The position numbers and the translations under genes were made by a program. From assembly GCF_046105845.1 (NCBI RefSeq), contig NZ_CP151004.1: a stretch of 64,000 nucleotides of DNA, one strand, 5' to 3'. How positions within the stretch are numbered: the first letter of the stretch is position 1; the number at the start of each line of letters is the position of its first letter. The notes beneath the pieces are model-generated. The model worked only from the letters and a program-made list of their open reading frames with translations. It made no database searches and was not told the origin of the DNA. Below, one piece after another: positions 10,095 through 40,331 of this stretch. Source of the stretch: Escherichia coli (GTDB taxonomy: Bacteria > Pseudomonadota > Gammaproteobacteria > Enterobacterales > Enterobacteriaceae).

Positions 10095-10315
10095 AAAGTG
10101 ACACTGTCACTTAAATACTGTGATTTCAGCTACGATTCCGGGAGATTCCTTCCTTAACTTCCCCTCTTGCACCAAAACTGCACTACGCTGCACAAATGTT
10201 GATCAAAAGTTAAAAAATATAACTTTAAGCCAGCATTCTGGCGCTTATCCCGGCATGGCATGAGATCTGCATAAGCGGAAAGCGCAGCAATTTTTGTCTT
10301 ATACAGGAACCGTTT

Positions 10316-10897
10316 ATGTCGGATACCACCGAACTGGTTGATTTAGCCGTGATCTTCCCTGATCTGGAGATCGAATTGAAATACGCCTGCGCTGATAACA
10401 TCACAGGTAAAGCTATTTATCAGCAAGCGCGTTGTCTGTTACACAAGGATGCGATTACCGCGCTGGCGAAAAGTATCAGTATCGCCCAGCTGTCAGGCTT
10501 ACAACTGGTGATTTACGATGCGTATCGCCCACAACAAGCACAGGCGATGTTGTGGCAAACCTGCCCAGACCCGCAATATGTTGTTGATGTGGCGGTCGGT
10601 TCTAATCACAGCCGTGGCACGGCGATCGACCTGACGCTTCGTGATGAGCACGGGAACATCCTGGATATGGGTGCAGAGTTCGATGAAATGCACGAACGTT
10701 CCCATGCTTATCACCCTTCCGTCCCGCCCGCTGCTCAGCGCAATCGGCTGTTGCTGAATGCGATTATGACTGGCGGTGGCTTTGTCGGTATCCCGAGCGA
10801 ATGGTGGCACTTCGAATTACCCCTGGCAGCGAGTTACCCACTACTCGCTGATCAATTCACCTGTTTTATATCCCCTGGCACACAGCACGCCAGTTAA
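10316..10897 (+). CDS. ddpX: D-alanyl-D-alanine dipeptidase (VanX homolog), 193 aa
   Basis: Track ORF; ATG start; first gene of ddp operon. Confidence 0.93.
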   Translation: MSDTTELVDLAVIFPDLEIELKYACADNITGKAIYQQARCLLHKDAITALAKSISIAQLSGLQLVIYDAYRPQQAQAMLWQTCPDPQYVVDVAVGSNHSRGTAIDLTLRDEHGNILDMGAEFDEMHERSHAYHPSVPPAAQRNRLLLNAIMTGGGFVGIPSEWWHFELPLAASYPLLADQFTCFISPGTQHAS

Positions 10898-10910
10898 TCA
10901 GGAAACTGTC

Positions 10911-12461
10911 ATGAAGAGATCGATATCGTTTCGTCCTACATTGCTCGCGATCGTCCTTGCCACAACAATGCCGGTTGCGCACGCCGCCGTACCGAAAGAT
11001 ATGCTGGTGATCGGTAAAGCTGCCGACCCACAAACCCTCGACCCAGCGGTGACAATTGATAATAACGACTGGACAGTGACCTACCCGTCTTATCAGCGAC
11101 TGGTTCAGTACAAAACGGACGGTGATAAAGGCTCAACCGACGTTGAAGGCGATCTGGCGAGTAGCTGGAAAGCGTCTGACGATCAAAAAGAGTGGACGTT
11201 CACCCTGAAGGACAATGCTAAATTTGCCGATGGCACACCTGTCACTGCCGAAGCAGTAAAACTCTCTTTTGAGCGGTTACTAAAAATCGGCCAGGGGCCA
11301 GCAGAAGCATTTCCCAAAGATTTAAAGATTGATGCTCCCGACGAACATACGGTGAAGTTTACCCTTAGCCAACCATTCGCACCGTTCCTCTACACGCTGG
11401 CGAATGACGGTGCATCCATTATCAATCCGGCGGTCTTAAAGGAACATGCAGCGGATGATGCCCGTGGTTTCCTCGCGCAAAATACCGCTGGCTCCGGACC
11501 GTTTATGCTGAAAAGCTGGCAAAAAGGTCAGCAATTAGTTCTGGTGCCAAATCCGCATTACCCCGGTAATAAACCGAATTTCAAACGGGTATCGGTAAAA
11601 ATTATCGGTGAAAGTGCTTCCCGTCGCCTGCAGCTCTCCCGTGGCGACATTGACATTGCCGATGCGCTGCCGGTGGATCAACTCAACGCACTGAAGCAGG
11701 AAAACAAAGTCAATGTGGCAGAGTATCCGTCACTGCGCGTCACCTATCTGTATCTGAATAACAGCAAAGCGCCACTTAATCAGGCGGATCTGCGTCGGGC
11801 CATTTCCTGGTCTACCGATTATCAGGGTATGGTTAACGGCATTCTGAGTGGTAACGGAAAACAAATGCGCGGCCCGATTCCGGAAGGCATGTGGGGATAC
11901 GATGCGACGGCAATGCAATACAACCATGACGAAACGAAAGCCAAAGCCGAATGGGATAAAGTGACGAGCAAACCCACCAGCCTGACGTTTCTCTATTCTG
12001 ATAATGATCCGAACTGGGAGCCTATTGCTCTGGCGACACAATCCAGTCTCAACAAGCTGGGCATCAATGTGAAGCTGGAAAAGCTGGCGAACGCCACCAT
12101 GCGCGACAGAGTGGGTAAAGGTGATTACGACATTGCGATTGGCAACTGGAGCCCGGATTTTGCCGACCCGTATATGTTTATGAATTACTGGTTTGAGTCA
12201 GACAAAAAAGGTCTGCCGGGTAACCGCTCGTTCTATGAAAACAGTGAGGTCGATAAGCTACTGCGCAATGCGCTAGCGACCACCGACCAGACGCAGCGTA
12301 CCCGGGACTACCAGCAGGCACAGAAAATCGTCATTGATGACGCTGCTTATGTGTACCTGTTCCAGAAAAACTACCAACTGGCGATGAACAAAGAGGTGAA
12401 AGGTTTTGTGTTCAATCCCATGCTGGAACAGGTCTTCAATATCAATACCATGAGTAAATAA
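10911..12461 (+). CDS. ddpA: D,D-dipeptide ABC transporter periplasmic binding protein
   Basis: Track ORF 10776..12461; start at internal Met MKRSISFRPTLLAIVLATTMPVAHA (signal peptide). Confidence 0.92.
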   Translation: MKRSISFRPTLLAIVLATTMPVAHAAVPKDMLVIGKAADPQTLDPAVTIDNNDWTVTYPSYQRLVQYKTDGDKGSTDVEGDLASSWKASDDQKEWTFTLKDNAKFADGTPVTAEAVKLSFERLLKIGQGPAEAFPKDLKIDAPDEHTVKFTLSQPFAPFLYTLANDGASIINPAVLKEHAADDARGFLAQNTAGSGPFMLKSWQKGQQLVLVPNPHYPGNKPNFKRVSVKIIGESASRRLQLSRGDIDIADALPVDQLNALKQENKVNVAEYPSLRVTYLYLNNSKAPLNQADLRRAISWSTDYQGMVNGILSGNGKQMRGPIPEGMWGYDATAMQYNHDETKAKAEWDKVTSKPTSLTFLYSDNDPNWEPIALATQSSLNKLGINVKLEKLANATMRDRVGKGDYDIAIGNWSPDFADPYMFMNYWFESDKKGLPGNRSFYENSEVDKLLRNALATTDQTQRTRDYQQAQKIVIDDAAYVYLFQKNYQLAMNKEVKGFVFNPMLEQVFNINTMSK

Positions 12462-12462
12462 C

Positions 12463-13485
12463 GTGACCTTCTGGAGTATTTTACGCCAACGCTGCTGGGG
12501 GCTGGTGCTCGTGGTGGCGGGCGTCTGTGTGATTACGTTTATTATCTCGCATCTTATCCCCGGCGATCCGGCGCGGTTACTGGCGGGTGACCGCGCCAGC
12601 GATGCTATCGTGGATAATATTCGCCAGCAACTGGGACTGGACCAGCCACTGTACGTACAGTTTTACCGCTACGTCAGCGACCTGTTTCAGGGTGACCTGG
12701 GAACATCCATTCGTACCGGGCGTCCGGTGCTGGAAGAGTTGCGCATATTTTTCCCGGCGACGCTGGAACTGGCTTTTTGTGCCCTGCTGCTGGCACTCCT
12801 GATTGGCATCCCGCTGGGCATACTCTCTGCAGTCTGGCGAAATCGCTGGCTGGATCATCTGGTGCGAATAATGGCCATTACCGGAATCTCCACACCTGCG
12901 TTCTGGCTTGGGCTGGGCGTCATTGTGCTGTTTTATGGTCATCTGCAAATTCTTCCCGGCGGCGGAAGGCTTGATGACTGGCTGGATCCACCAACGCACG
13001 TTACCGGCTTTTATCTGCTCGATGCGCTGCTTGAAGGCAACGGTGAAGTCTTCTTCAATGCGCTGCAACATCTCATCTTACCGGCATTAACGCTGGCGTT
13101 CGTTCACCTGGGAATTGTCGCTCGCCAGATCCGCTCAGCGATGCTGGAACAATTGAGTGAAGACTACATTCGTACCGCCCGGGCCAGCGGCTTGCCCGGC
13201 TGGTATATCGTTTTATGTTATGCGCTACCCAATGCGTTGATCCCCTCGATTACCGTATTGGGGCTGGCGCTGGGCGATTTGTTGTATGGCGCAGTGCTCA
13301 CCGAAACCGTTTTTGCCTGGCCCGGAATGGGGGCATGGGTAGTGACATCAATACAGGCGCTCGACTTCCCTGCGGTGATGGGATTTGCCGTCGTGGTTTC
13401 GTTTGCTTATGTGCTGGTGAACCTGGTGGTGGATTTGCTCTATTTGTGGATTGATCCGCGTATCGGACGTGGAGGTGGTGAATGA
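12463..13485 (+). CDS. ddpB: D,D-dipeptide ABC transporter permease
   Basis: Track ORF (GTG start), DppB-like membrane protein. Confidence 0.92.
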   Translation: MTFWSILRQRCWGLVLVVAGVCVITFIISHLIPGDPARLLAGDRASDAIVDNIRQQLGLDQPLYVQFYRYVSDLFQGDLGTSIRTGRPVLEELRIFFPATLELAFCALLLALLIGIPLGILSAVWRNRWLDHLVRIMAITGISTPAFWLGLGVIVLFYGHLQILPGGGRLDDWLDPPTHVTGFYLLDALLEGNGEVFFNALQHLILPALTLAFVHLGIVARQIRSAMLEQLSEDYIRTARASGLPGWYIVLCYALPNALIPSITVLGLALGDLLYGAVLTETVFAWPGMGAWVVTSIQALDFPAVMGFAVVVSFAYVLVNLVVDLLYLWIDPRIGRGGGE

Positions 13486-14378
13486 TGCTAAGCGAGGAAA
13501 CGTCAGCCGTGCGCCCACCAAAACAAACGCGATTTAACGGTGCAAAACTGGTATGGATGCTGAAAGGCAGCCCGCTTACCGTGACCGGCGCAGTCATCAT
13601 TGTATTAATGCTACTGATGATGATTTTTTCACCGTGGCTGGCGACGCATGATCCCAACGCCATTGATTTAACCGCCCGCCTTTTGCCGCCTTCTGCGGCG
13701 CACTGGTTTGGCACCGATGAAGTGGGACGCGATCTGTTTAGCCGCGTACTGGTCGGCAGTCAGCAATCAATTCTCGCCGGATTAGTGGTAGTCGCCATTG
13801 CAGGTATGATGGGGTCGCTACTCGGGTGTCTATCCGGTGTGCTTGGCGGACGCGCAGACGCGATTATCATGCGCATCATGGACATTATGCTGTCGATTCC
13901 TTCGCTGGTGCTGACAATGGCACTGGCAGCCGCTCTCGGTCCGAGTTTGTTTAACGCCATGCTGGCGATTGCTATTGTGCGAATTCCCTTTTATGTGCGC
14001 CTGGCGCGGGGGCAAACATTAGTTGTTCGCCAGTACACTTACGTTCAGGCGGCGAAAACCTTTGGTGCGTCACGCTGGCATCTGATCAACTGGCATATTT
14101 TACGTAACTCCCTGCCGCCGCTGATTGTGCAGGCATCGCTGGATATCGGTAGCGCGATTTTAATGGCCGCCACGTTGGGATTTATTGGCCTGGGTGCTCA
14201 ACAACCGAGTGCTGAATGGGGGGCGATGGTGGCGAATGGTCGCAACTATGTGCTCGATCAATGGTGGTATTGCGCATTTCCGGGGGCAGCGATTTTGCTT
14301 ACCGCCGTCGGGTTTAATCTCTTTGGCGATGGTATTCGCGATCTGCTTGACCCGAAAGCAGGAGGAAAGCAGTCATGA
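13482..14378 (+). CDS. ddpC: D,D-dipeptide ABC transporter permease
   Basis: Track ORF; start overlaps ddpB stop by 4 nt. Confidence 0.92.
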   Translation: MMLSEETSAVRPPKQTRFNGAKLVWMLKGSPLTVTGAVIIVLMLLMMIFSPWLATHDPNAIDLTARLLPPSAAHWFGTDEVGRDLFSRVLVGSQQSILAGLVVVAIAGMMGSLLGCLSGVLGGRADAIIMRIMDIMLSIPSLVLTMALAAALGPSLFNAMLAIAIVRIPFYVRLARGQTLVVRQYTYVQAAKTFGASRWHLINWHILRNSLPPLIVQASLDIGSAILMAATLGFIGLGAQQPSAEWGAMVANGRNYVLDQWWYCAFPGAAILLTAVGFNLFGDGIRDLLDPKAGGKQS

Positions 14379-15361
14379 CCCAACCCGTTCTGGACATTCA
14401 ACAGCTGCATTTGAGTTTCCCCGGTTTTAACGGCGACGTTCACGCGCTCAACAATGTGTCATTGAAAATCAACCGCGGTGAAATTGTCGGTCTGGTGGGA
14501 GAATCCGGCTCGGGTAAATCAGTCACTGCAATGTTGATTATGCGTCTGCTACCGACGGGCAGTTATTGCGTACATCGGGGGCAGATTTCACTGCTGGGAG
14601 AAGATGCTCTTAACGCTCGGGAAAAGCAGCTTCGTCAGTGGCGCGGCGCACGAGTGGCGATGATCTTTCAGGAACCGATGACCGCCCTTAATCCGACACG
14701 TCGAATAGGTCTTCAGATGATGGACGTGATCCGCCATCATCAGCCAATAAGTCGTCGGGAAGCCAGAGCTAAAGCGATTGCCCTGCTGGAAGAGATGCAA
14801 ATCCCGGATGCCGTGGAAGTTATGTCGCGCTATCCGTTTGAGCTTTCAGGTGGTATGCGCCAGCGGGTAATGATTGCGCTGGCATTCTCCTGCGAGCCGC
14901 AATTGATTATTGCCGACGAACCGACTACGGCGCTGGACGTCACGGTACAGTTGCAGGTACTGCGTCTGCTTAAACATAAAGCCCGCGCCAGTGGAACTGC
15001 GGTACTGTTCATCAGCCATGATATGGCCGTGGTGTCGCAACTGTGCGATAGCGTTTACGTGATGTATGCCGGAAGCGTGATTGAGAGCGGCGTGACGGCA
15101 GACGTTATCCATCATCCCCGGCATCCGTATACCATTGGTTTGCTGCAATGCGCACCGGAACATGGAATACCGCGCCAGCCATTACCCGCCATTCCAGGGA
15201 CGGTACCAAACCTCACCCATTTGCCTGACGGCTGCGCTTTTCGCGATCGTTGCTATGCGGCAGGTGCACAGTGTGAAAACGTCCCGGCGCTGACAGCGTG
15301 TGGTGACAACAACCACCGCTGCGCCTGTTGGTATCCTCAGCAGGAGGTCATTAGTGTCTGA
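14375..15361 (+). CDS. ddpD: D,D-dipeptide ABC transporter ATP-binding protein
   Basis: Track ORF; Walker A GESGSGKS; overlaps ddpC stop by 4 nt. Confidence 0.92.
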   Translation: MTQPVLDIQQLHLSFPGFNGDVHALNNVSLKINRGEIVGLVGESGSGKSVTAMLIMRLLPTGSYCVHRGQISLLGEDALNAREKQLRQWRGARVAMIFQEPMTALNPTRRIGLQMMDVIRHHQPISRREARAKAIALLEEMQIPDAVEVMSRYPFELSGGMRQRVMIALAFSCEPQLIIADEPTTALDVTVQLQVLRLLKHKARASGTAVLFISHDMAVVSQLCDSVYVMYAGSVIESGVTADVIHHPRHPYTIGLLQCAPEHGIPRQPLPAIPGTVPNLTHLPDGCAFRDRCYAAGAQCENVPALTACGDNNHRCACWYPQQEVISV

Positions 15362-16280
15362 CACGTTATTAACGTTACGCGACGTCCATATCAATTTCCC
15401 TGCCCGAAAAAACTGGCTTGGTAAAACTACGGAACATGTTCATGCCATCAATGGTATTGATTTACAGATCCGTCGTGGTGAAACCTTAGGGATCGTCGGT
15501 GAGTCAGGCTGCGGCAAAAGCACCCTCGCACAGCTTTTAATGGGTATGCTGCAACCGAGCCACGGGCAGTACATCCGTTCAGGATCACAACGCATTATGC
15601 AGATGGTGTTTCAGGACCCGCTCTCTTCGCTTAATCCGCGCTTACCGGTGTGGCGCATCATCACGGAACCGCTCTGGATTGCTAAGCGTAGTAGTGAACA
15701 ACAGCGGCGAGCGTTGGCAGAGGAGCTGGCTGTGCAGGTGGGTATTCGTCCGGAGTATCTCGACCGCTTGCCTCATGCGTTCTCAGGCGGGCAGCGGCAA
15801 CGTATCGCCATTGCCAGAGCACTCTCTTCGCAGCCTGACGTGATTGTGCTTGATGAACCAACCTCGGCGCTGGATATCTCCGTGCAGGCGCAGATCCTCA
15901 ATTTACTGGTAACGCTACAGGAAAATCGCGAGCTGACTTATGTGCTGATTTCACACAATGTCTCGGTGATACGTCATATGAGCGATCGGGTGGCGGTGAT
16001 GTATCTCGGACAGATTGTGGAACTAGGAGACGCGCAACAGGTGCTGACAGCTCCGGCACATCCATACACCCGATTATTGCTGGATTCCCTCCCCGCCATT
16101 GATAAACCGCTGGAGGAAGAATGGGCATTACGTAAAACGGATCTGCCGGGAAACCGCACGTTGCCACAAGGCTGTTTTTTCCGCGAACGCTGCCCTCTGG
16201 CAACCCACGGATGTGAAGTCCGGCAATCATTAACAATAAGGGAGGACGGACGTGAGATCCGGTGCTGGCGGGCGCTGTAG
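15354..16280 (+). CDS. ddpF: D,D-dipeptide ABC transporter ATP-binding protein
   Basis: Track ORF 15300..16280; start placed at in-frame Val codon (VSDTLLTL...) overlapping ddpD stop, giving ~308 aa; Walker A GESGCGKS; exact start uncertain. Confidence 0.88.
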   Translation: MSDTLLTLRDVHINFPARKNWLGKTTEHVHAINGIDLQIRRGETLGIVGESGCGKSTLAQLLMGMLQPSHGQYIRSGSQRIMQMVFQDPLSSLNPRLPVWRIITEPLWIAKRSSEQQRRALAEELAVQVGIRPEYLDRLPHAFSGGQRQRIAIARALSSQPDVIVLDEPTSALDISVQAQILNLLVTLQENRELTYVLISHNVSVIRHMSDRVAVMYLGQIVELGDAQQVLTAPAHPYTRLLLDSLPAIDKPLEEEWALRKTDLPGNRTLPQGCFFRERCPLATHGCEVRQSLTIREDGREIRCWRAL

Positions 16281-16281
16281 A

Positions 16282-16334
16282 GACGCTAACAACGCATCAG
16301 GCAATCACGCGCCTGACGCGTCATCCGGCAACGC
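16282..16334. repeat. REP-like palindromic element between convergent ddpF and osmC
   Basis: CGCATCAGGC ... GCGCCTGACGCGTCATCCGGC motifs resembling REP consensus. Confidence 0.45.
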
Positions 16335-16335
16335 T

Positions 16336-16767
16336 TTATGATTTCAACTGGTAATCAAGCGTAATTTCAGCTTTCAGTACCTGAGAAACCGGGCATCCTG
16401 CTTTTGCTTTCTGGATAATGCCGTCAAAGGTGGCTGCATCAATACCCGGCACCGCAACTTCGCTCTTCAGTGCGATTTTAGTAATCGCAAAACCGGCATC
16501 CACTTTATCCAGCGACACATCGGCGGTGGTATCAATCGATGTTGGCGTGAATCCCGCTTCCCCCAGCATTAATGAAAGCGCCATTGAGAAACATGCGGCA
16601 TGCGCTGCGCCAATCAGTTCTTCAGGGTTGGTTCCTTTTTCGCCTTCAAAACGCGTGTTAAATCCATACGGCTGTTGGTTCAGCACGCCGCTCTCGGTGG
16701 ATACTGTTCCCTTCCCGCGTTTGATATCGCCTTCCCAGTGTGCCTGACCTTTCTTATGGATTGTCAT
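16336..16767 (-). CDS. osmC: Osmotically inducible peroxiredoxin OsmC, 143 aa
   Basis: Track ORF; recognisable OsmC sequence. Confidence 0.96.
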   Translation of the reverse strand: MTIHKKGQAHWEGDIKRGKGTVSTESGVLNQQPYGFNTRFEGEKGTNPEELIGAAHAACFSMALSLMLGEAGFTPTSIDTTADVSLDKVDAGFAITKIALKSEVAVPGIDAATFDGIIQKAKAGCPVSQVLKAEITLDYQLKS

Positions 16768-20965: not shown

Positions 20966-20996
20966 AAAAAATGGCGCTTCTTAAAGCGCCATTTTC
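20964..20996. terminator. Bidirectional rho-independent terminator shared by yddM (+) and fdnI (-)
   Basis: A-run, ATGGCGCTT / AAGCGCCAT perfect stem, T-run; lies between convergent genes. Confidence 0.6.
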
Positions 20997-21016
20997 AGCT
21001 TAAAGTTCAAAAGAGA

Positions 21017-31138: not shown

Positions 31139-32527
31139 ATGGCACTGCAAAATGAGAAAACTAGTCGTTATCTTTTGCGCGACTGGAAACCAGAAAATCC
31201 GGCCTTCTGGGAAAATAAAGGAAAACACATTGCACGAAGAAACCTCTGGATATCAGTCAGTTGTCTACTTCTTGCCTTCTGTGTCTGGATGCTATTTAGC
31301 GCAGTTACTGTTAATCTCAATAAAATCGGTTTTAATTTCACTACCGATCAACTCTTTTTATTAACCGCATTACCCTCCGTTTCTGGCGCATTATTGCGTG
31401 TCCCCTACTCCTTTATGGTGCCTATATTTGGTGGACGCCGATGGACGGTTTTTAGTACTGCAATCCTGATTATTCCTTGCGTCTGGCTCGGAATTGCCGT
31501 GCAGAATCCGAATACTCCTTTTGGGATATTTATCGTTATCGCTTTGCTATGCGGTTTTGCAGGTGCGAACTTTGCTTCGAGCATGGGCAATATCAGTTTC
31601 TTCTTCCCAAAAGCCAAACAAGGGAGCGCACTTGGGATTAATGGCGGATTAGGAAACTTAGGTGTAAGTGTGATGCAGCTGGTTGCACCGCTGGTCATTT
31701 TTGTACCCGTATTTGCCTTTCTCGGCGTCAATGGCGTACCGCAGGCCGACGGTTCGGTGATGTCGCTGGCGAATGCCGCATGGATTTGGGTGCCATTACT
31801 GGCGATTGCCACGATCGCCGCCTGGTCAGGGATGAATGATATCGCCAGTTCACGCGCGTCAATTGCCGACCAGCTGCCAGTGTTACAACGCCTGCATCTC
31901 TGGCTGCTGAGCCTGCTTTACCTTGCCACCTTCGGTTCGTTTATCGGTTTTTCTGCGGGTTTTGCCATGCTGGCGAAAACTCAGTTCCCTGATGTGAATA
32001 TTCTGCGCCTGGCGTTCTTTGGCCCATTTATTGGTGCCATCGCGCGGTCGGTTGGTGGTGCTATTTCCGATAAATTCGGCGGAGTGCGGGTGACGTTGAT
32101 CAACTTCATTTTTATGGCGATTTTCAGCGCCCTGCTGTTCCTTACCTTACCGGGCACAGGCTCCGGTAATTTCATCGCATTTTACGCCGTATTTATGGGG
32201 TTGTTTCTGACCGCAGGTCTGGGAAGTGGTTCTACTTTCCAGATGATCGCCGTCATCTTTCGCCAGATAACCATTTATCGGGTGAAGATGAAAGGCGGTA
32301 GTGATGAGCAAGCTCAGAGAGAAGCCGTCACCGAAACGGCGGCGGCTCTGGGCTTTATCTCAGCCATTGGCGCAGTGGGCGGCTTTTTCATTCCGCAGGC
32401 GTTTGGCATGTCGCTCAATATGACCGGCTCTCCGGTAGGCGCGATGAAAGTGTTTTTAATCTTCTACATCGTTTGTGTGCTGCTGACCTGGCTGGTTTAT
32501 GGTCGGCGGAAGTTCAGCCAAAAATAA
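31139..32527 (+). CDS. narU: Nitrate/nitrite transporter NarU (MFS), 462 aa
   Basis: Track ORF 31097..32527; start at Met MALQNEKTSRYLLRDW... Confidence 0.94.
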   Translation: MALQNEKTSRYLLRDWKPENPAFWENKGKHIARRNLWISVSCLLLAFCVWMLFSAVTVNLNKIGFNFTTDQLFLLTALPSVSGALLRVPYSFMVPIFGGRRWTVFSTAILIIPCVWLGIAVQNPNTPFGIFIVIALLCGFAGANFASSMGNISFFFPKAKQGSALGINGGLGNLGVSVMQLVAPLVIFVPVFAFLGVNGVPQADGSVMSLANAAWIWVPLLAIATIAAWSGMNDIASSRASIADQLPVLQRLHLWLLSLLYLATFGSFIGFSAGFAMLAKTQFPDVNILRLAFFGPFIGAIARSVGGAISDKFGGVRVTLINFIFMAIFSALLFLTLPGTGSGNFIAFYAVFMGLFLTAGLGSGSTFQMIAVIFRQITIYRVKMKGGSDEQAQREAVTETAAALGFISAIGAVGGFFIPQAFGMSLNMTGSPVGAMKVFLIFYIVCVLLTWLVYGRRKFSQK

Positions 32528-32534
32528 GAGATCG

Positions 32535-32605
32535 ATGCCTGACACGTCTTATCAGGCTACAACCGTGTCGCACCCGACAAGGCATCAGATCCCAATTCAT
32601 TCCTG
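32535..32605. repeat. REP-like nested palindromes in narU-narZ intergenic region
   Basis: GCCTGACACGTCTTATCAGGC and flanking GATGCCT...AGGCATC inverted repeats. Confidence 0.35.
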
Positions 32606-32621
32606 GAGCAGGAGTTATGTC

Positions 32622-35600
32622 ATGAGTAAACTTTTGGATCGCTTTCGCTATTTCAAACAAAAGGGCGAAACCTTTGCCGATGGTCACGGACAGGTGATGC
32701 ATAGCAACCGCGACTGGGAGGACAGCTATCGCCAGCGTTGGCAATTCGACAAAATCGTGCGTTCCACCCACGGTGTTAACTGTACAGGCTCCTGTAGCTG
32801 GAAAATCTACGTTAAAAATGGTCTGGTGACCTGGGAAATCCAACAGACCGACTACCCGCGCACTCGCCCTGACCTGCCCAATCATGAACCTCGCGGCTGC
32901 CCGCGTGGCGCAAGTTACTCCTGGTATCTTTACAGCGCTAACCGCCTGAAATACCCGCTCATTCGCAAACGACTGATTGAACTGTGGCGCGAAGCCCTCA
33001 AACAACACAGCGATCCGGTACTGGCGTGGGCATCGATTATGAACGATCCGCAAAAGTGCCTGAGCTACAAACAAGTGCGTGGGCGCGGCGGGTTTATCCG
33101 CTCCAACTGGCAGGAACTAAACCAGCTGATTGCCGCCGCTAACGTCTGGACCATCAAAACCTACGGCCCGGATCGCGTTGCCGGTTTCTCGCCGATCCCG
33201 GCGATGTCGATGGTTTCTTACGCCGCCGGAACACGTTATCTTTCACTATTAGGTGGCACCTGTTTAAGCTTCTACGACTGGTATTGCGACCTGCCGCCCG
33301 CCTCGCCGATGACCTGGGGCGAGCAAACCGACGTGCCAGAATCTGCCGACTGGTATAACTCCAGCTACATCATCGCCTGGGGGTCTAACGTACCGCAGAC
33401 ACGTACGCCGGACGCCCACTTCTTTACCGAAGTACGCTACAAAGGCACTAAAACCATCGCCATTACCCCTGACTACTCTGAAGTGGCCAAATTGTGCGAC
33501 CAGTGGCTGGCACCAAAACAAGGCACTGATAGCGCCTTGGCGATGGCAATGGGCCATGTGATTTTAAAAGAGTTTCATCTCGATAATCCCAGCGACTACT
33601 TTATCAACTACTGCCGCCGCTACAGCGACATGCCGATGCTGGTAATGCTGGAACCTCGCGACGATGGCAGCTACGTACCCGGGCGCATGATCCGCGCGTC
33701 TGACCTGGTAGATGGACTGGGCGAAAGCAACAATCCGCAGTGGAAAACCGTGGCGGTTAATACCGCAGGTGAACTGGTGGTGCCGAACGGTTCGATTGGT
33801 TTTCGCTGGGGAGAAAAAGGCAAATGGAATCTGGAATCTATTGCCGCCGGTACGGAAACCGAATTGTCATTAACCCTGCTTGGTCAACATGACGCCGTTG
33901 CAGGCGTGGCCTTCCCCTACTTTGGCGGCATTGAAAATCCGCATTTTCGTAGCGTAAAACATGATCCTGTCCTGGTGCGTCAATTACCCGTTAAAAACCT
34001 GACATTAGCCGATGGCAGCACCTGTCCGGTGGTTAGCGTTTATGATTTGGTACTGGCGAATTATGGCCTCGATCGCGGGCTGGAAGATGAAAACAGCGCG
34101 AAAGATTACGCTGAAATCAAACCGTACACCCCAGCCTGGGGTGAGCAAATTACCGGCGTGCCGCGCCAGTATATTGAAACCATCGCCCGTGAATTTGCCG
34201 ATACCGCCCATAAAACGCATGGGCGCTCGATGATTATCCTCGGTGCTGGCGTCAACCATTGGTATCACATGGACATGAACTACCGTGGGATGATCAACAT
34301 GCTGATCTTCTGCGGTTGTGTCGGGCAAAGCGGTGGCGGCTGGGCACACTATGTCGGTCAGGAAAAACTGCGCCCGCAAACCGGCTGGTTGCCACTGGCC
34401 TTTGCGCTCGACTGGAACCGACCACCGCGCCAGATGAACAGCACCTCGTTTTTCTACAATCATTCCAGCCAATGGCGCTATGAAAAAGTCTCTGCTCAGG
34501 AGTTACTTTCACCGATCGCCGATGCCAGTAAGTACAGCGGTCATCTGATTGATTTCAACGTTCGCGCCGAACGTATGGGCTGGCTACCTTCTGCGCCGCA
34601 GCTGGGGCGTAACCCGCTCGGGATTAAAGCTGAAGCCGACAAGGCCGGATTATCCCCCACAGAATTTACCGCCCAGGCGCTGAAATCGGGCGATTTACGC
34701 ATGGCCTGCGAACAACCAGATAGCGGCAGCAATCATCCGCGTAATTTGTTTGTCTGGCGTTCTAACCTGCTTGGCTCCTCCGGCAAAGGCCACGAGTATA
34801 TGCAGAAGTATCTGCTGGGGACCGAAAGCGGGATTCAGGGCGAGGAACTCGGTGCCAGCGACGGGATCAAACCGGAAGAAGTCGAGTGGCAAACTGCGGC
34901 GATTGAAGGCAAGCTCGACCTGCTGGTGACGCTCGACTTCCGTATGTCCAGTACCTGCCTGTTCTCCGATATCGTTCTGCCCACCGCCACCTGGTACGAA
35001 AAAGACGATATGAACACCTCGGATATGCATCCGTTTATTCATCCGCTTTCTGCGGCGGTCGATCCGGCGTGGGAATCACGCAGCGACTGGGAAATCTACA
35101 AAGGTATCGCCAAAGCCTTTTCGCAAGTGTGCGTGGGCCATCTTGGCAAAGAAACCGACGTGGTATTACAACCACTGCTGCATGACTCTCCGGCAGAACT
35201 CTCACAGCCGTGTGAAGTGCTCGACTGGCGCAAAGGCGAATGCGATCTGATTCCAGGTAAAACTGCGCCCAATATTGTGGCGGTGGAACGCGACTACCCT
35301 GCTACCTATGAACGCTTTACCTCGCTCGGGCCATTGATGGACAAACTTGGCAACGGCGGTAAAGGGATTTCGTGGAATACCCAGGATGAAATCGATTTCC
35401 TCGGCAAACTCAACTACACCAAGCGTGAAGGCCCGGCACAGGGGCGTCCGCTGATTGACACCGCCATTGACGCATCAGAAGTGATTCTGGCGCTGGCACC
35501 GGAAACCAACGGTCATGTTGCAGTCAAAGCGTGGCAGGCGCTGGGCGAGATAACCGGACGCGAACATACCCATCTGGCGCTGCACAAAGAGGACGAGAAG

Positions 35601-36362
35601 ATTCGCTTTCGCGATATTCAGGCGCAGCCACGTAAAATCATCTCCAGCCCCACATGGTCTGGTCTGGAAAGCGATCACGTCTCCTACAACGCCGGATATA
35701 CCAACGTTCATGAGTTAATTCCGTGGCGCACGCTGTCGGGACGCCAGCAGCTCTATCAGGATCATCCGTGGATGCGTGCTTTTGGTGAAAGCCTGGTGGC
35801 TTATCGCCCGCCTATCGACACCCGTAGCGTCAGTGAAATGCGCCAGATACCGCCAAACGGCTTCCCGGAAAAAGCACTTAACTTCCTGACGCCGCATCAG
35901 AAATGGGGCATTCACTCAACCTACAGTGAAAACCTGCTAATGCTGACCCTCTCTCGCGGTGGACCGATTGTCTGGATCAGCGAAACCGATGCCCGTGAAC
36001 TGACCATTGTCGATAACGACTGGGTGGAAGTGTTTAACGCCAACGGCGCGCTGACTGCCCGCGCGGTGGTCAGCCAACGTGTACCGCCGGGTATGACCAT
36101 GATGTATCACGCTCAGGAACGCATTATGAATATTCCTGGTTCGGAAGTAACTGGCATGCGCGGCGGCATTCATAACTCGGTCACCCGCGTTTGTCCGAAA
36201 CCAACGCATATGATTGGCGGTTACGCGCAGCTGGCCTGGGGCTTTAATTACTACGGCACCGTCGGCTCGAACCGTGACGAATTCATCATGATCCGCAAGA
36301 TGAAGAACGTTAACTGGCTGGATGATGAAGGTCGCGATCAGGTACAGGAGGCGAAAAAATGA
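32622..36362 (+). CDS. narZ: Respiratory nitrate reductase Z alpha subunit (Mo-bisMGD), 1246 aa
   Basis: Track ORF 32499..36362; start at Met MSKLLDRFRYFKQKGETFADGHGQ after GGAG RBS. Confidence 0.96.
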   Translation: MSKLLDRFRYFKQKGETFADGHGQVMHSNRDWEDSYRQRWQFDKIVRSTHGVNCTGSCSWKIYVKNGLVTWEIQQTDYPRTRPDLPNHEPRGCPRGASYSWYLYSANRLKYPLIRKRLIELWREALKQHSDPVLAWASIMNDPQKCLSYKQVRGRGGFIRSNWQELNQLIAAANVWTIKTYGPDRVAGFSPIPAMSMVSYAAGTRYLSLLGGTCLSFYDWYCDLPPASPMTWGEQTDVPESADWYNSSYIIAWGSNVPQTRTPDAHFFTEVRYKGTKTIAITPDYSEVAKLCDQWLAPKQGTDSALAMAMGHVILKEFHLDNPSDYFINYCRRYSDMPMLVMLEPRDDGSYVPGRMIRASDLVDGLGESNNPQWKTVAVNTAGELVVPNGSIGFRWGEKGKWNLESIAAGTETELSLTLLGQHDAVAGVAFPYFGGIENPHFRSVKHDPVLVRQLPVKNLTLADGSTCPVVSVYDLVLANYGLDRGLEDENSAKDYAEIKPYTPAWGEQITGVPRQYIETIAREFADTAHKTHGRSMIILGAGVNHWYHMDMNYRGMINMLIFCGCVGQSGGGWAHYVGQEKLRPQTGWLPLAFALDWNRPPRQMNSTSFFYNHSSQWRYEKVSAQELLSPIADASKYSGHLIDFNVRAERMGWLPSAPQLGRNPLGIKAEADKAGLSPTEFTAQALKSGDLRMACEQPDSGSNHPRNLFVWRSNLLGSSGKGHEYMQKYLLGTESGIQGEELGASDGIKPEEVEWQTAAIEGKLDLLVTLDFRMSSTCLFSDIVLPTATWYEKDDMNTSDMHPFIHPLSAAVDPAWESRSDWEIYKGIAKAFSQVCVGHLGKETDVVLQPLLHDSPAELSQPCEVLDWRKGECDLIPGKTAPNIVAVERDYPATYERFTSLGPLMDKLGNGGKGISWNTQDEIDFLGKLNYTKREGPAQGRPLIDTAIDASEVILALAPETNGHVAVKAWQALGEITGREHTHLALHKEDEKIRFRDIQAQPRKIISSPTWSGLESDHVSYNAGYTNVHELIPWRTLSGRQQLYQDHPWMRAFGESLVAYRPPIDTRSVSEMRQIPPNGFPEKALNFLTPHQKWGIHSTYSENLLMLTLSRGGPIVWISETDARELTIVDNDWVEVFNANGALTARAVVSQRVPPGMTMMYHAQERIMNIPGSEVTGMRGGIHNSVTRVCPKPTHMIGGYAQLAWGFNYYGTVGSNRDEFIMIRKMKNVNWLDDEGRDQVQEAKK

Positions 36363-40248: not shown

Positions 40249-40255
40249 AACCGTT

Positions 40256-40320
40256 GCCTGATGCGCTTCGCTTATCAGGTCTATGTATGCCGGATAAGGC
40301 GTTTACGCCGCATCCGGCAA
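40256..40320. repeat. REP/BIME element (two palindromic units) between convergent yddE and nhoA
   Basis: GCCTGATGCGCTTCGCTTATCAGG and GCCGGATAAGGCGTTTACGCCGCATCCGGC, classic REP sequences. Confidence 0.75.
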
Positions 40321-40331
40321 CCTGACATAAA

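What the first reader, a model, noticed from the sequence alone, without database searches (positions are those of the whole stretch)
16282..16334. REP/BIME palindromic elements at three convergent or intercistronic junctions
REP-like units occur after ddpF (16282-16334), in the narU-narZ spacer (32535-32605) and, in classic form, between yddE and nhoA (40256-40320). These are ordinary for E. coli but useful as strain markers and mRNA-stability elements; the narU-narZ copy lies inside an operon-like spacer.
Basis: partly seen in the sequence, partly recalled or inferred. Interest (0 to 1): 0.15.

Follow-up and report, generated by a model that had tools for sequence, protein, structure and literature searches.

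The report
Known E. coli REP elements, variously decayed
The three sites are ordinary, already catalogued E. coli REP/BIME palindromes in three states of preservation (one canonical pair, one truncated remnant, one chimeric hairpin that no longer passes a REP scan), and they vary between strains as such elements usually do.

Summary
The window is E. coli chromosome, the reverse of K-12 1.51-1.57 Mb.

- **Site 3 (40255-40319):** a canonical z1 + y REP pair, tail to tail, equal to K-12 REP118. An independent covariance model gives 24 and 56 bits (E 2e-6 and 3e-18). The query finds a median of 22 places per genome. Both GTAG feet are mutated, partly through a 12-nt linker deletion found in about 8% of records.
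- **Site 2 (32536-32579):** a truncated z2-type unit that keeps CTAC/GTAG, plus linker and half a y unit. It scores 12.4 bits (E 0.056) and is 84% identical to the ybcF-purK BIME. K-12-like genomes (about 66% of records) have lost 13 more bases.
- **Site 1 (16281-16335):** fails the scan (7.4 bits, E 4; one copy per genome). It does hold an exact REP head 10-mer and a 12-bp hairpin, which is stronger in the osmC-sense RNA. It lies where Citrobacter and Raoultella carry a significant REP. K-12's copy is curated as REPt122, which a published study treats as a model REP-containing, stabilised osmC mRNA.

They also missed that K-12's REP120 BIME array is absent at 20966-21016. Nothing here is novel; interest is low.

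The parts
40255..40284 (-). z1-type REP, seen as an inverted REP on the + strand: TGCCTGATGCGCTTCGCTTATCAGGTCTAT. Its foot is ATAG instead of GTAG. It starts 6 nt after the yddE stop.
   Evidence: Consensus score 0.80. Model R1 gives 24.2 bits, E 2.4e-6. Hairpin present in the fold. Orthologous to K-12 REP118.
40285..40319 (+). y-type REP GTATGCCGGATAAGGCGTTTACGCCGCATCCGGCA. Its foot is GTAT instead of GTAG; the AA/GC bulge is kept; the loop TTTA is at 40302-40305. It abuts the z1 unit tail to tail with no linker.
   Evidence: Consensus score 0.886. R1 gives 56.4 bits, E 2.7e-18. Median 22 BLAST places per genome. IS1397 is inserted in this loop in strain PKF11.
32536..32560 (-). Truncated z-type REP remnant, + strand TGCCTGACACGTCTTATCAGGCTAC. 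CTAC/GTAG is kept at 32557-32560. It starts 8 nt after the narU stop.
   Evidence: Consensus score 0.45. R1 gives 12.4 bits, E 0.056. 84% identity over 48 nt to the z2 unit plus linker of the ybcF-purK BIME.
32561..32579 (+). Linker AACC plus the 3' half of a y-type REP (GTGTCGCACCCGACA). It corresponds to AACCGGTGCCGCATCCGGCA of the ybcF-purK BIME.
   Evidence: Alignment A11; sequence of L006.
16291..16322 (-). Hairpin of two REP 'head' arms: 16292-16302 ACGCATCAGGC and 16311-16321 GCCTGACGCGT, with loop 16303-16310. It starts about 14 nt after the osmC stop and is the K-12 REP122/REPt122 equivalent.
   Evidence: Inverted repeat. Exact head 10-mer at 16293-16302 on the minus strand. Folds: osmC sense -31.4 kcal/mol, z -3.1; ddpF sense -23.7 kcal/mol, z -1.65. 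Pairing kept in 96.9% of cells across 7 distinct sequences, with one G.U to C-G double change.
16319..16330 (+). CGTCATCCGGCA, the surviving 3' arm of an older REP at the osmC 3' end.
   Evidence: It aligns with GCCGGATGACGCGTCATCCGGCA of E. coli strain 0-4. It also aligns with GCCGGATAAGACGTAGTCGCATCCGGCA of Citrobacter, which R1 scores at 18-35 bits.
16277..16303 (+). Possible z2-type REP lacking its 5' arm: GTAG-AGACGC-TAACAA-CGCATCAGGCA. The GTAG contains the ddpF stop codon TAG. Weak evidence.
   Evidence: Consensus scores 0.417 (z1) and 0.392 (z2) ending at 16303. R1 gives 7.4 bits, E 4, not significant.
61434..61467 (-). y-type REP between yncJ and rlhA, the K-12 REP117 equivalent. Not in the finding.
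   Evidence: Consensus score 0.643. R1 gives 27.1 bits, E 2e-7. Genes named; K-12 REP117 position.
20966..21016 (.). Empty site. The yddM-fdnI spacer is 51 nt here, holding only a terminator-like hairpin, against 407 nt in K-12, which carries two tandem y + z1 BIME copies (the first is REP120).
   Evidence: Alignment. K-12 REP scan. Record spans of about 220, 398 and 576 nt among genomes.

Best explanation
All three sites belong to, or descend from, the E. coli REP/BIME family of extragenic palindromes. They are caught at three stages of decay.

Site 3 is an intact z1 + y pair. Its two stable hairpins sit in the 3' UTRs of the convergent genes yddE and nhoA.

Site 2 is a BIME fragment in the narU-narZ intercistronic spacer: a z2-type unit with an internal or 5' deletion, a linker, and half a y unit. 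It forms only weak alternative stems.

Site 1 is a chimera of REP half-sites. The right arm is left over from an older REP at the osmC 3' end. The left arm is a z-type head. Together they make a 12-bp hairpin about 14 nt after the osmC stop.

The likely function is at the RNA level. 3'-UTR stem-loops impede 3'-to-5' exonucleases and the degradosome, and cause partial, mostly Rho-assisted termination, which tunes the level of the upstream transcript. This function is shown for the K-12 osmC transcript and for other REPs. It is inferred, not shown, for this strain and for sites 2 and 3.

As DNA, site 3 is probably no longer a substrate of the REP-associated transposase, because both GTAG feet are mutated. 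Its y loop is still a target for IS1397.
For: Classification: consensus scan with shuffles. An independent covariance model built from 14 REPs of other loci. Copy number per genome of 22, 2 and 1. A paralogous BIME for site 2. Orthologous significant REPs at the osmC 3' end in Citrobacter and Raoultella, and an intermediate perfect palindrome in E. coli strain 0-4.

Curated names: REP118; REP122/REPt122.

Structure: folds and z-scores, and the strand asymmetry at site 1. Hairpin conserved across E. coli lineages and in Escherichia sp. MOD1-EC7003.

Function, from the literature: osmC mRNA is treated as REP-containing. Its decay depends on RNase E and the degradosome and slows on ATP depletion. 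The full-length transcript is about 500 nt, consistent with an end near the hairpin (PMC10100675). REPs act as partial Rho-dependent terminators and stabilisers, and an in vitro Rho-binding site lies 18-51 nt from REP118 (bioRxiv 10.64898/2026.03.23.713779).

GTAG and the stem mismatch are required for TnpA_REP binding and cleavage (PMC3333891; PMC8266576). An IS1397 insertion sits in the y loop in strain PKF11.
Against: Site 1 fails both scans (E 4; score below the mean shuffle maximum) and is single-copy even with blastn word size 11 at E <= 10. Its REP ancestry is therefore inferred from position and half-site motifs. Site 2 is only marginal (E 0.056), and no genome carries the postulated full-length ancestor.

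Covariation at the site 1 hairpin is one double change, and 66 of 500 shuffles do as well. No U-tract terminator is found at site 1.

No expression or 3'-end data exist for this strain. [quoted passage not shown]
Confidence: 0.85

Rival explanations
1. Site 1 is simply the 3' stem-loop or terminator of osmC and has no REP ancestry. Its resemblance to REP heads (GCCTGATGCG, CATCCGGCA) is convergence or chance in a GC-rich palindrome.
For: It fails the consensus and covariance-model scans and has one copy per genome. No canonical tail arm or AA/GC bulge is present. The hairpin is conserved and favours the osmC strand.
Against: The exact 10-mer head occurs only four times in 128 kb of both strands, and all four are at REP-type intergenic sites (0.47 expected). 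The right arm aligns base for base with the 3' arm of REPs that occupy the same spot in Citrobacter, Raoultella and some E. coli. EcoCyc curates the K-12 copy as REPt122. The two readings can both be true: a REP remnant now kept as a 3' hairpin.
Confidence: 0.2
2. Site 2 is not a REP remnant. It is a locus-specific regulatory structure of the narU-narZ junction, for example controlling narZ translation or processing of the operon mRNA.
For: The model E-value is only 0.056. The predicted fold uses a long-range stem (32530-32540 with 32581-32591) rather than a REP hairpin. A second hairpin covers the narZ Shine-Dalgarno region.
Against: It is 84% identical over 48 nt to a canonical z2 unit + CTAC + AACC + half-y block elsewhere in the genome. 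About two thirds of E. coli records have lost 13 more bases of it without losing the operon. That argues against a strongly constrained structure.
Confidence: 0.1
3. The elements act mainly at the DNA level, as binding sites for IHF, DNA gyrase or HU, or as chromosome-domain anchors, rather than as RNA hairpins.
For: [quoted passage not shown] REP-HU-naRNA contacts were proposed earlier.
Against: None of the three sites has the long L linker that carries the IHF site. Site 3 is tail to tail with a 0-nt (window) or 12-nt (K-12) linker. The 2026 study found no REP-REP contacts and no compaction effect for its model REP.
Confidence: 0.05

Closest known systems
E. coli K-12 REP118 (yddE-nhoA, NC_000913 1534884-1534958)
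   Same: Same locus, same z1 + y tail-to-tail pair, same y unit with a GTAT foot.
   Different: The window lacks 12 nt (ACAACCGGGCTA) of the linker, which also turns the z1 CTAC into CTAT. Its z1 arms are closer to consensus than K-12's (0.80 against 0.667). ATCC 25922 keeps both GTAG and CTAC.
E. coli K-12 REP122 / REPt122 (osmC 3' end), as named from EcoCyc in PMC10100675
   Same: The same 55-nt spacer, with 4 base differences between the stop codons (7 over the 115 aligned bases), and the same hairpin. It lies at the 3' end of osmC mRNA.
   Different: None of substance. The K-12 copy scores the same 0.417 and also fails the consensus scan. The prefix 't' appears to mark REPs that double as Rho-independent terminators, but no U-tract is found here.
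BIME at ybcF-purK (z2, z2 and y units with an AACCGG-half-y block)
   Same: The order z2 tail - CTAC - AACC - GTGCCGCATCCGGCA is shared with site 2 at 84% identity.
   Different: Site 2 lacks about 12 nt of the z2 unit (either the head or the inner stem) and has several substitutions. It is a single decayed copy inside an operon spacer.
REPs downstream of osmC in Citrobacter and Raoultella
   Same: Same position in the convergent spacer at the osmC stop, and a shared 3' arm CGCATCCGGCA / CGTCATCCGGCA.
   Different: Those are complete short REPs (R1 18-35 bits) next to a 3-hydroxybutyrate dehydrogenase gene. In the window the left neighbour is ddpF and the left arm has been replaced.

Membership tests
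E. coli REP (palindromic unit; y, z1, z2) | Full-length match to the y, z1 or z2 consensus (29-37 nt imperfect palindrome) | tested here: met
   Site 3 only: scores 0.886 and 0.80, against a shuffle maximum of 0.514; R1 56.4 and 24.2 bits. The consensus strings were checked on K-12 REP120 z1 (1.0), purK y (0.943) and purK z2 (0.905).
E. coli REP (palindromic unit; y, z1, z2) | Full-length match to the consensus: site 2 | tested here: inconclusive
   Score 0.45, close to the mean shuffle maximum of 0.431. R1 gives 12.4 bits, E 0.056. A paralogous BLAST match has E 2e-3.
E. coli REP (palindromic unit; y, z1, z2) | Full-length match to the consensus: site 1 | tested here: not met
   Score 0.417. 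R1 gives 7.4 bits, E 4. Only half-site motifs are present.
E. coli REP (palindromic unit; y, z1, z2) | Conserved GTAG tetranucleotide 5' of the palindrome foot, required by TnpA_REP (PMC3333891, PMC8266576) | tested here: not met
   Site 3: GTAT (y) and ATAG (z1); ATCC 25922 has both intact. Site 2 keeps GTAG as CTAC at 32557-32560. Site 1 has a GTAG at 16277-16280 overlapping the ddpF stop, but the register is uncertain.
E. coli REP (palindromic unit; y, z1, z2) | AA/GC mismatch bulge in the stem | tested here: met
   Both units of site 3 show it (sequence; fold). It is absent at site 1. At site 2 only the AA side remains.
E. coli REP (palindromic unit; y, z1, z2) | Extragenic location, mostly in the 3' UTRs of tandem or convergent genes | tested here: met
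   All three lie between annotated coding sequences. Only the doubtful left extension of site 1 overlaps the ddpF stop.
E. coli REP (palindromic unit; y, z1, z2) | Dispersed, high copy number in the genome | tested here: met
   Site 3 query: median 22 places per genome, up to 44. This is not met for site 1 (median 1) and barely met for site 2 (median 2).
BIME-1 (y and z1 separated by the long L linker, often with an IHF site) | The long, conserved L linker between the REP and the inverted REP (the head-to-head reading is my inference from the paper's figure legend) | tested here: not met
   At site 3 the z1 and y units face tail to tail, CTAC/GTAG sides together, with a linker of 0 nt (window) or 12 nt (K-12). 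The definition is from PMC3333891. Site 3 is therefore an atypical or partial BIME.
Rho-independent terminator | GC-rich stem followed by a U-tract | tested here: not met
   No terminator-like site in 16000-16600 on either strand. After the stem in the osmC sense the sequence is UGUUAGCG.
IS1397 target (loop of a palindromic unit) | Insertion of IS1397 into the REP loop. The specificity itself is from my own knowledge of the literature, not checked here. | tested here: met
   In strain PKF11, which carries the window's allele, an IS1397-family element interrupts the y loop GGCGTT|..|TTACGCC at the position equal to 40304.

The most novel reading that the evidence does not exclude
The site 1 hairpin (REPt122) may be more than a decayed REP. 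It could be a recurrent recombination junction at which whole gene blocks next to osmC have been exchanged. The left neighbour is ddpXABCDF in the window and K-12, dosP with a 65-nt filler in about 1350 genomes, and a 3-hydroxybutyrate dehydrogenase/GntP block in others. The breakpoints fall at 16292 and 16314, inside the palindrome. This would fit REP- or RAYT-mediated or hairpin-stimulated rearrangement.
Probability: 0.12. Interest if true: 0.4.

Novelty: already known. Interest (0 to 1): 0.08.

Why it matters
It matters little. REP/BIME elements have been catalogued in E. coli since the 1980s. Two of the three loci carry curated K-12 names, REP118 and REP122. Site 2 may be REP119, judging by the numbering, but I could not confirm that.

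The practical value is modest. Four indel markers in this window separate lineages:
- the 13-nt narU-narZ indel;
- the 12-nt yddE-nhoA linker deletion;
- zero, one or two BIME copies at yddM-fdnI;
- the presence or absence of ddp, with its boundary at the osmC hairpin.

The comparison also gives a clean illustration of how REPs decay, through loss of an arm or of the GTAG foot, while a 3' hairpin is retained.

Tried and rejected
1. The Rfam gathering scan of the whole window found only the fdnG SECIS and no REP family hit, so it gave no help in classification.
2. The K-12 RefSeq table in this collection carries no REP repeat_region features. The K-12 names had to come from papers.
3. The terminator scan at site 1 was negative.
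4. I tested whether the 12-nt deletion at site 3 is a TnpA_REP excision between the two C|T sites (GTC|TAC ... GGC|TAA). That would remove 11 nt and leave GGTCTAATG. The window has GGTCTATG, so I rejected it (sequence; cleavage rule).
5. I tested whether both site 2 alleles derive from a full z2 unit by clean deletions. K-12's TGCCTGATG|TAC fits a clean 26-nt deletion, and the window fits a 12-nt deletion plus two changes. A synthetic full-length query found no genome carrying the ancestor, so this stays an inference.
6. Covariation at the site 1 hairpin has too little variation to be informative: one double change, and 66 of 500 shuffles do as well.
7. Liang, Rudd and Deutscher 2015 reported that a REP within about 15 nt of a stop codon reduces translation through ribosome stalling and tmRNA. 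It is not in the searchable library, so I recall it from memory only and did not use it as evidence.
8. Several fetched loci were not visible to the Python sandbox. The outgroup analysis was done with the alignment and model tools instead.

Full report
**Context.** The window is E. coli chromosome, in reverse orientation relative to K-12 MG1655 around 1.51-1.57 Mb.
- ddpF and osmC;
- narU and narZ;
- yddE and nhoA.

ORF ends give three spacers:
- a 55-nt convergent spacer at 16281-16335;
- a 95-nt intercistronic spacer at 32528-32622;
- an 83-nt convergent spacer at 40249-40331.

The best matches over 801 bases at the ddpF-osmC junction are 99.5% identical, so the exact strain is not in the collection.

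**What defines a REP.** The definitions come from PMC3333891 and PMC8266576. E. coli REPs come in three types:
- y, 35 nt;
- z1, 29 nt;
- z2, 37 nt.

Each is an imperfect palindrome preceded by GTAG, with a conserved AA/GC mismatch in the stem. Most are paired in opposite orientation as BIMEs. GTAG and the mismatch are required for binding and cleavage by the REP-associated transposase.

**Consensus scan.** I aligned the three consensus sequences, end to end, to every position of both strands. I then compared the scores with 60 dinucleotide-preserving shuffles of the window.
- The best score in a shuffled window is 0.431 +/- 0.037, maximum 0.514.
- Site 3 scores 0.886 (y, 40285-40319, + strand) and 0.80 (z1, 40255-40284, - strand).
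- A fourth element at 61434-61467 scores 0.643.
- Site 2 scores 0.45.
- Site 1 scores 0.417.

The consensus strings, which I wrote from memory, were validated on other loci. K-12 REP120 z1 scores 1.0, and the ybcF-purK y and z2 units score 0.943 and 0.905.

**Independent model.** I built a covariance model (R1) from 14 canonical REPs. They came from the gmhA, rayT and fdnI-yddM loci of K-12 and the ybcF-purK locus of another strain, and excluded the homologues of the three sites. Every position of the window was scored with filters off:

| Element | Coordinates | Bits | E-value |
|---|---|---|---|
| Site 3, y | 40285-40319 | 56.4 | 2.7e-18 |
| REP117 homologue | 61434-61467 | 27.1 | 2e-7 |
| Site 3, z1 | 40255-40284 | 24.2 | 2.4e-6 |
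| Site 2 | 32536-32560 | 12.4 | 0.056 |
| Site 1, best | 16277-16296 | 7.4 | 4 |

**Repetitiveness.**
- The site 3 query finds a median of 22 places per genome, up to 44.
- The site 1 core finds one place per genome, even with 11-base words and E up to 10.
- The site 2 core finds a median of two.

**Site 3 in detail.** It is an inverted z1 unit followed directly by a y unit, tail to tail. Both hairpins are predicted on both strands (-34.5 and -34.6 kcal/mol; z -5.2 and -4.2). It is K-12 REP118, NC_000913 1534884-1534958.
- Against K-12, the window lacks 12 nt (ACAACCGGGCTA) of the linker.
- ATCC 25922 has both feet intact (CTAC and GTAG). K-12 has CTAC and GTAT. The window has CTAT and GTAT.
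- Given the published requirement for GTAG, the window's copy should no longer be a transposase substrate. That is an inference.
- The window-like allele is the minority: about 432 records at 95% identity or more, against about 5039 with longer alleles.
- In strain PKF11, which has the window's allele, an IS1397-family element sits in the y loop.
- The K-12 element has an in vitro Rho-binding site 18-51 nt away on the yddE-sense strand.

**Site 2 in detail.** The sequence TGCCTGACACGTCTTATCAGGCTAC-AACC-GTGTCGCACCCGACA aligns at 84% over 48 nt with the ybcF-purK block. That block is z2 tail, CTAC, AACCGG, then half a y unit. Site 2 is therefore a BIME fragment that has lost about 12 nt of its z2 unit.
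- K-12 and O157 have instead TGCCTGATG|TACAACC, 13 nt shorter.
- The long allele occurs in about 1858 records, including the B2 strain E2348/69. The short allele occurs in about 3564.
- Both alleles can be derived from a full z2 unit by single deletions. No genome carries that ancestor.
- The fold is unremarkable (z -2.07). It uses a long-range stem rather than a REP hairpin, and a second small hairpin covers the narZ ribosome-binding site.

**Site 1 in detail.** The spacer differs from K-12 at 4 bases between the stop codons (7 over the 115 aligned bases).
- It holds an exact REP head, GCCTGATGCG, on the minus strand at 16293-16302. This is one of four exact copies in the window, against 0.47 expected.
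- It holds a near copy, GCCTGACGCG, on the plus strand at 16311-16320.
- The two heads face each other and pair into an 11/12-bp stem with an 8-nt loop.
- The single A.C mismatch on the + strand becomes a G.U pair in the osmC-sense RNA. That RNA folds at -31.4 kcal/mol (z -3.1), against -23.7 (z -1.65) for the ddpF sense.
- No U-tract follows.

Across E. coli lineages, and in Escherichia sp. MOD1-EC7003, the stem is kept while the loop varies. Nissle 1917 converts the G.U pair to C-G by changes on both sides. With so little variation the covariation count is not significant.

**Ancestry of site 1.** A degenerate pattern for the osmC C-terminus retrieved 18 loci from the species-representative genome collection. 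In Citrobacter and Raoultella the convergent neighbour of osmC is a 3-hydroxybutyrate dehydrogenase. There the spacer holds a complete short REP, for example GCCGGATAAGACGTAGTCGCATCCGGCA. R1 scores these at 18-35 bits, immediately next to the osmC stop.

Some E. coli, such as strains 0-4 and SCPM-O-B-8794, keep that neighbour. They carry a perfect palindrome there: GCCGGATGACGCGTCATCCGGC in strain 0-4, with one base different in SCPM. The window retains only the right part, GACGCGTCATCCGGCA.

So the element is best read as a REP remnant whose left arm was replaced by another REP head when the neighbouring genes changed.

**Published work on the K-12 copy of site 1.** It is curated as REP122/REPt122. 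PMC10100675 uses osmC mRNA as a model REP-containing transcript. The findings there are:
- the full-length transcript is about 500 nt;
- its decay depends on RNase E and the degradosome;
- it is stabilised on ATP depletion.

**Strain variation around site 1.**
- About 1350 of 5404 genomes match the window only from 16292 rightwards. In Nissle 1917 and AZ161, ddpXABCDF is absent. dosP is followed by a 65-nt unrelated filler and then the hairpin.
- Strain 0-4 matches only from 16314.
- MRSN352231 has a 17-nt tandem duplication across the ddpF stop.
- Strain Ch1 has an IS200/IS605-family element inserted at 16288/16289.

The hairpin therefore sits at a structural-variation boundary. Whether it causes that variation was not tested.

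- A y-type REP lies between yncJ and rlhA at 61434-61467, the K-12 REP117 equivalent.
- K-12's fdnI-yddM spacer is 407 nt and holds two tandem y + z1 BIME copies; the first is REP120. The window has 51 nt with only a terminator-like hairpin.
- Among complete genomes, the matched stretch at this junction (which includes about 170 nt of flanking gene sequence) spans about 220, 398 or 576 nt in the record, that is zero, one or two copies.

**Function.** The best-supported general model is that REPs act locally in 3' UTRs. They are partial, often Rho-assisted terminators and barriers to 3' exonucleases. The effects depend on context and are often small (bioRxiv 10.64898/2026.03.23.713779). That model has direct experimental backing for K-12 osmC. 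It is extrapolated here to sites 2 and 3 and to this strain.

**Verdict.** These are ordinary, already known elements. Novelty is none and interest is low.

Noticed in passing
window 20966-21016: K-12's REP120 BIME array (two tandem y + z1 copies, about 178 nt each, in a 407-nt spacer) is absent. The window has a 51-nt yddM-fdnI spacer with only a terminator-like hairpin. Among complete genomes, the matched stretch (with about 170 nt of flanking gene sequence) spans about 220, 398 or 576 nt in the record, that is zero, one or two copies.
   Followed up: partly
window 61434-61467 (- strand): A y-type REP between yncJ and rlhA, equivalent to K-12 REP117 (R1 27.1 bits, E 2e-7). It has no GTAG (GCCT instead). 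It is not listed in the finding.
   Followed up: partly
window about 10141 to 16292; L003, L009: The whole ddpXABCDF block is absent from about 1350 of 5404 E. coli genomes, for example Nissle 1917. It is replaced by a 65-nt unrelated filler. The right boundary falls exactly at the start of the osmC hairpin (16292). A third arrangement, with a 3-hydroxybutyrate dehydrogenase/GntP block, breaks at 16314.
   Followed up: partly
L011 (strain Ch1), equal to window 16288/16289: An IS200/IS605-family element (tnpA) is inserted 3 nt from the osmC hairpin, between ddpF and osmC.
   Followed up: partly
L031 (strain PKF11), equal to window 40304: An IS1397-family element is inserted in the loop of the y REP of site 3, in a strain that has the same 12-nt-deleted allele as the window.
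   Followed up: partly
L004 (strain MRSN352231), equal to window 16274-16290: A 17-nt tandem duplication (GCTGTAGAGATGCTAAC) spans the ddpF stop codon.
   Followed up: no
window 32599-32615: A small predicted hairpin, UUCCUGG-AGC-AGGAG, covers the narZ Shine-Dalgarno sequence just upstream of the narZ ATG at 32623. The sequence is also present in K-12.
   Followed up: no
window 24967-25025 (- strand): The only Rfam hit at gathering threshold in the window is SECIS_3 (84.3 bits), the selenocysteine insertion element of fdnG.
   Followed up: no
window 32499-36362: The narZ reading frame stays open upstream of the true start (ATG 32623) through the REP remnant, back to an ATG at 32499 inside narU. 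An automatic gene caller could therefore over-extend narZ.
   Followed up: no
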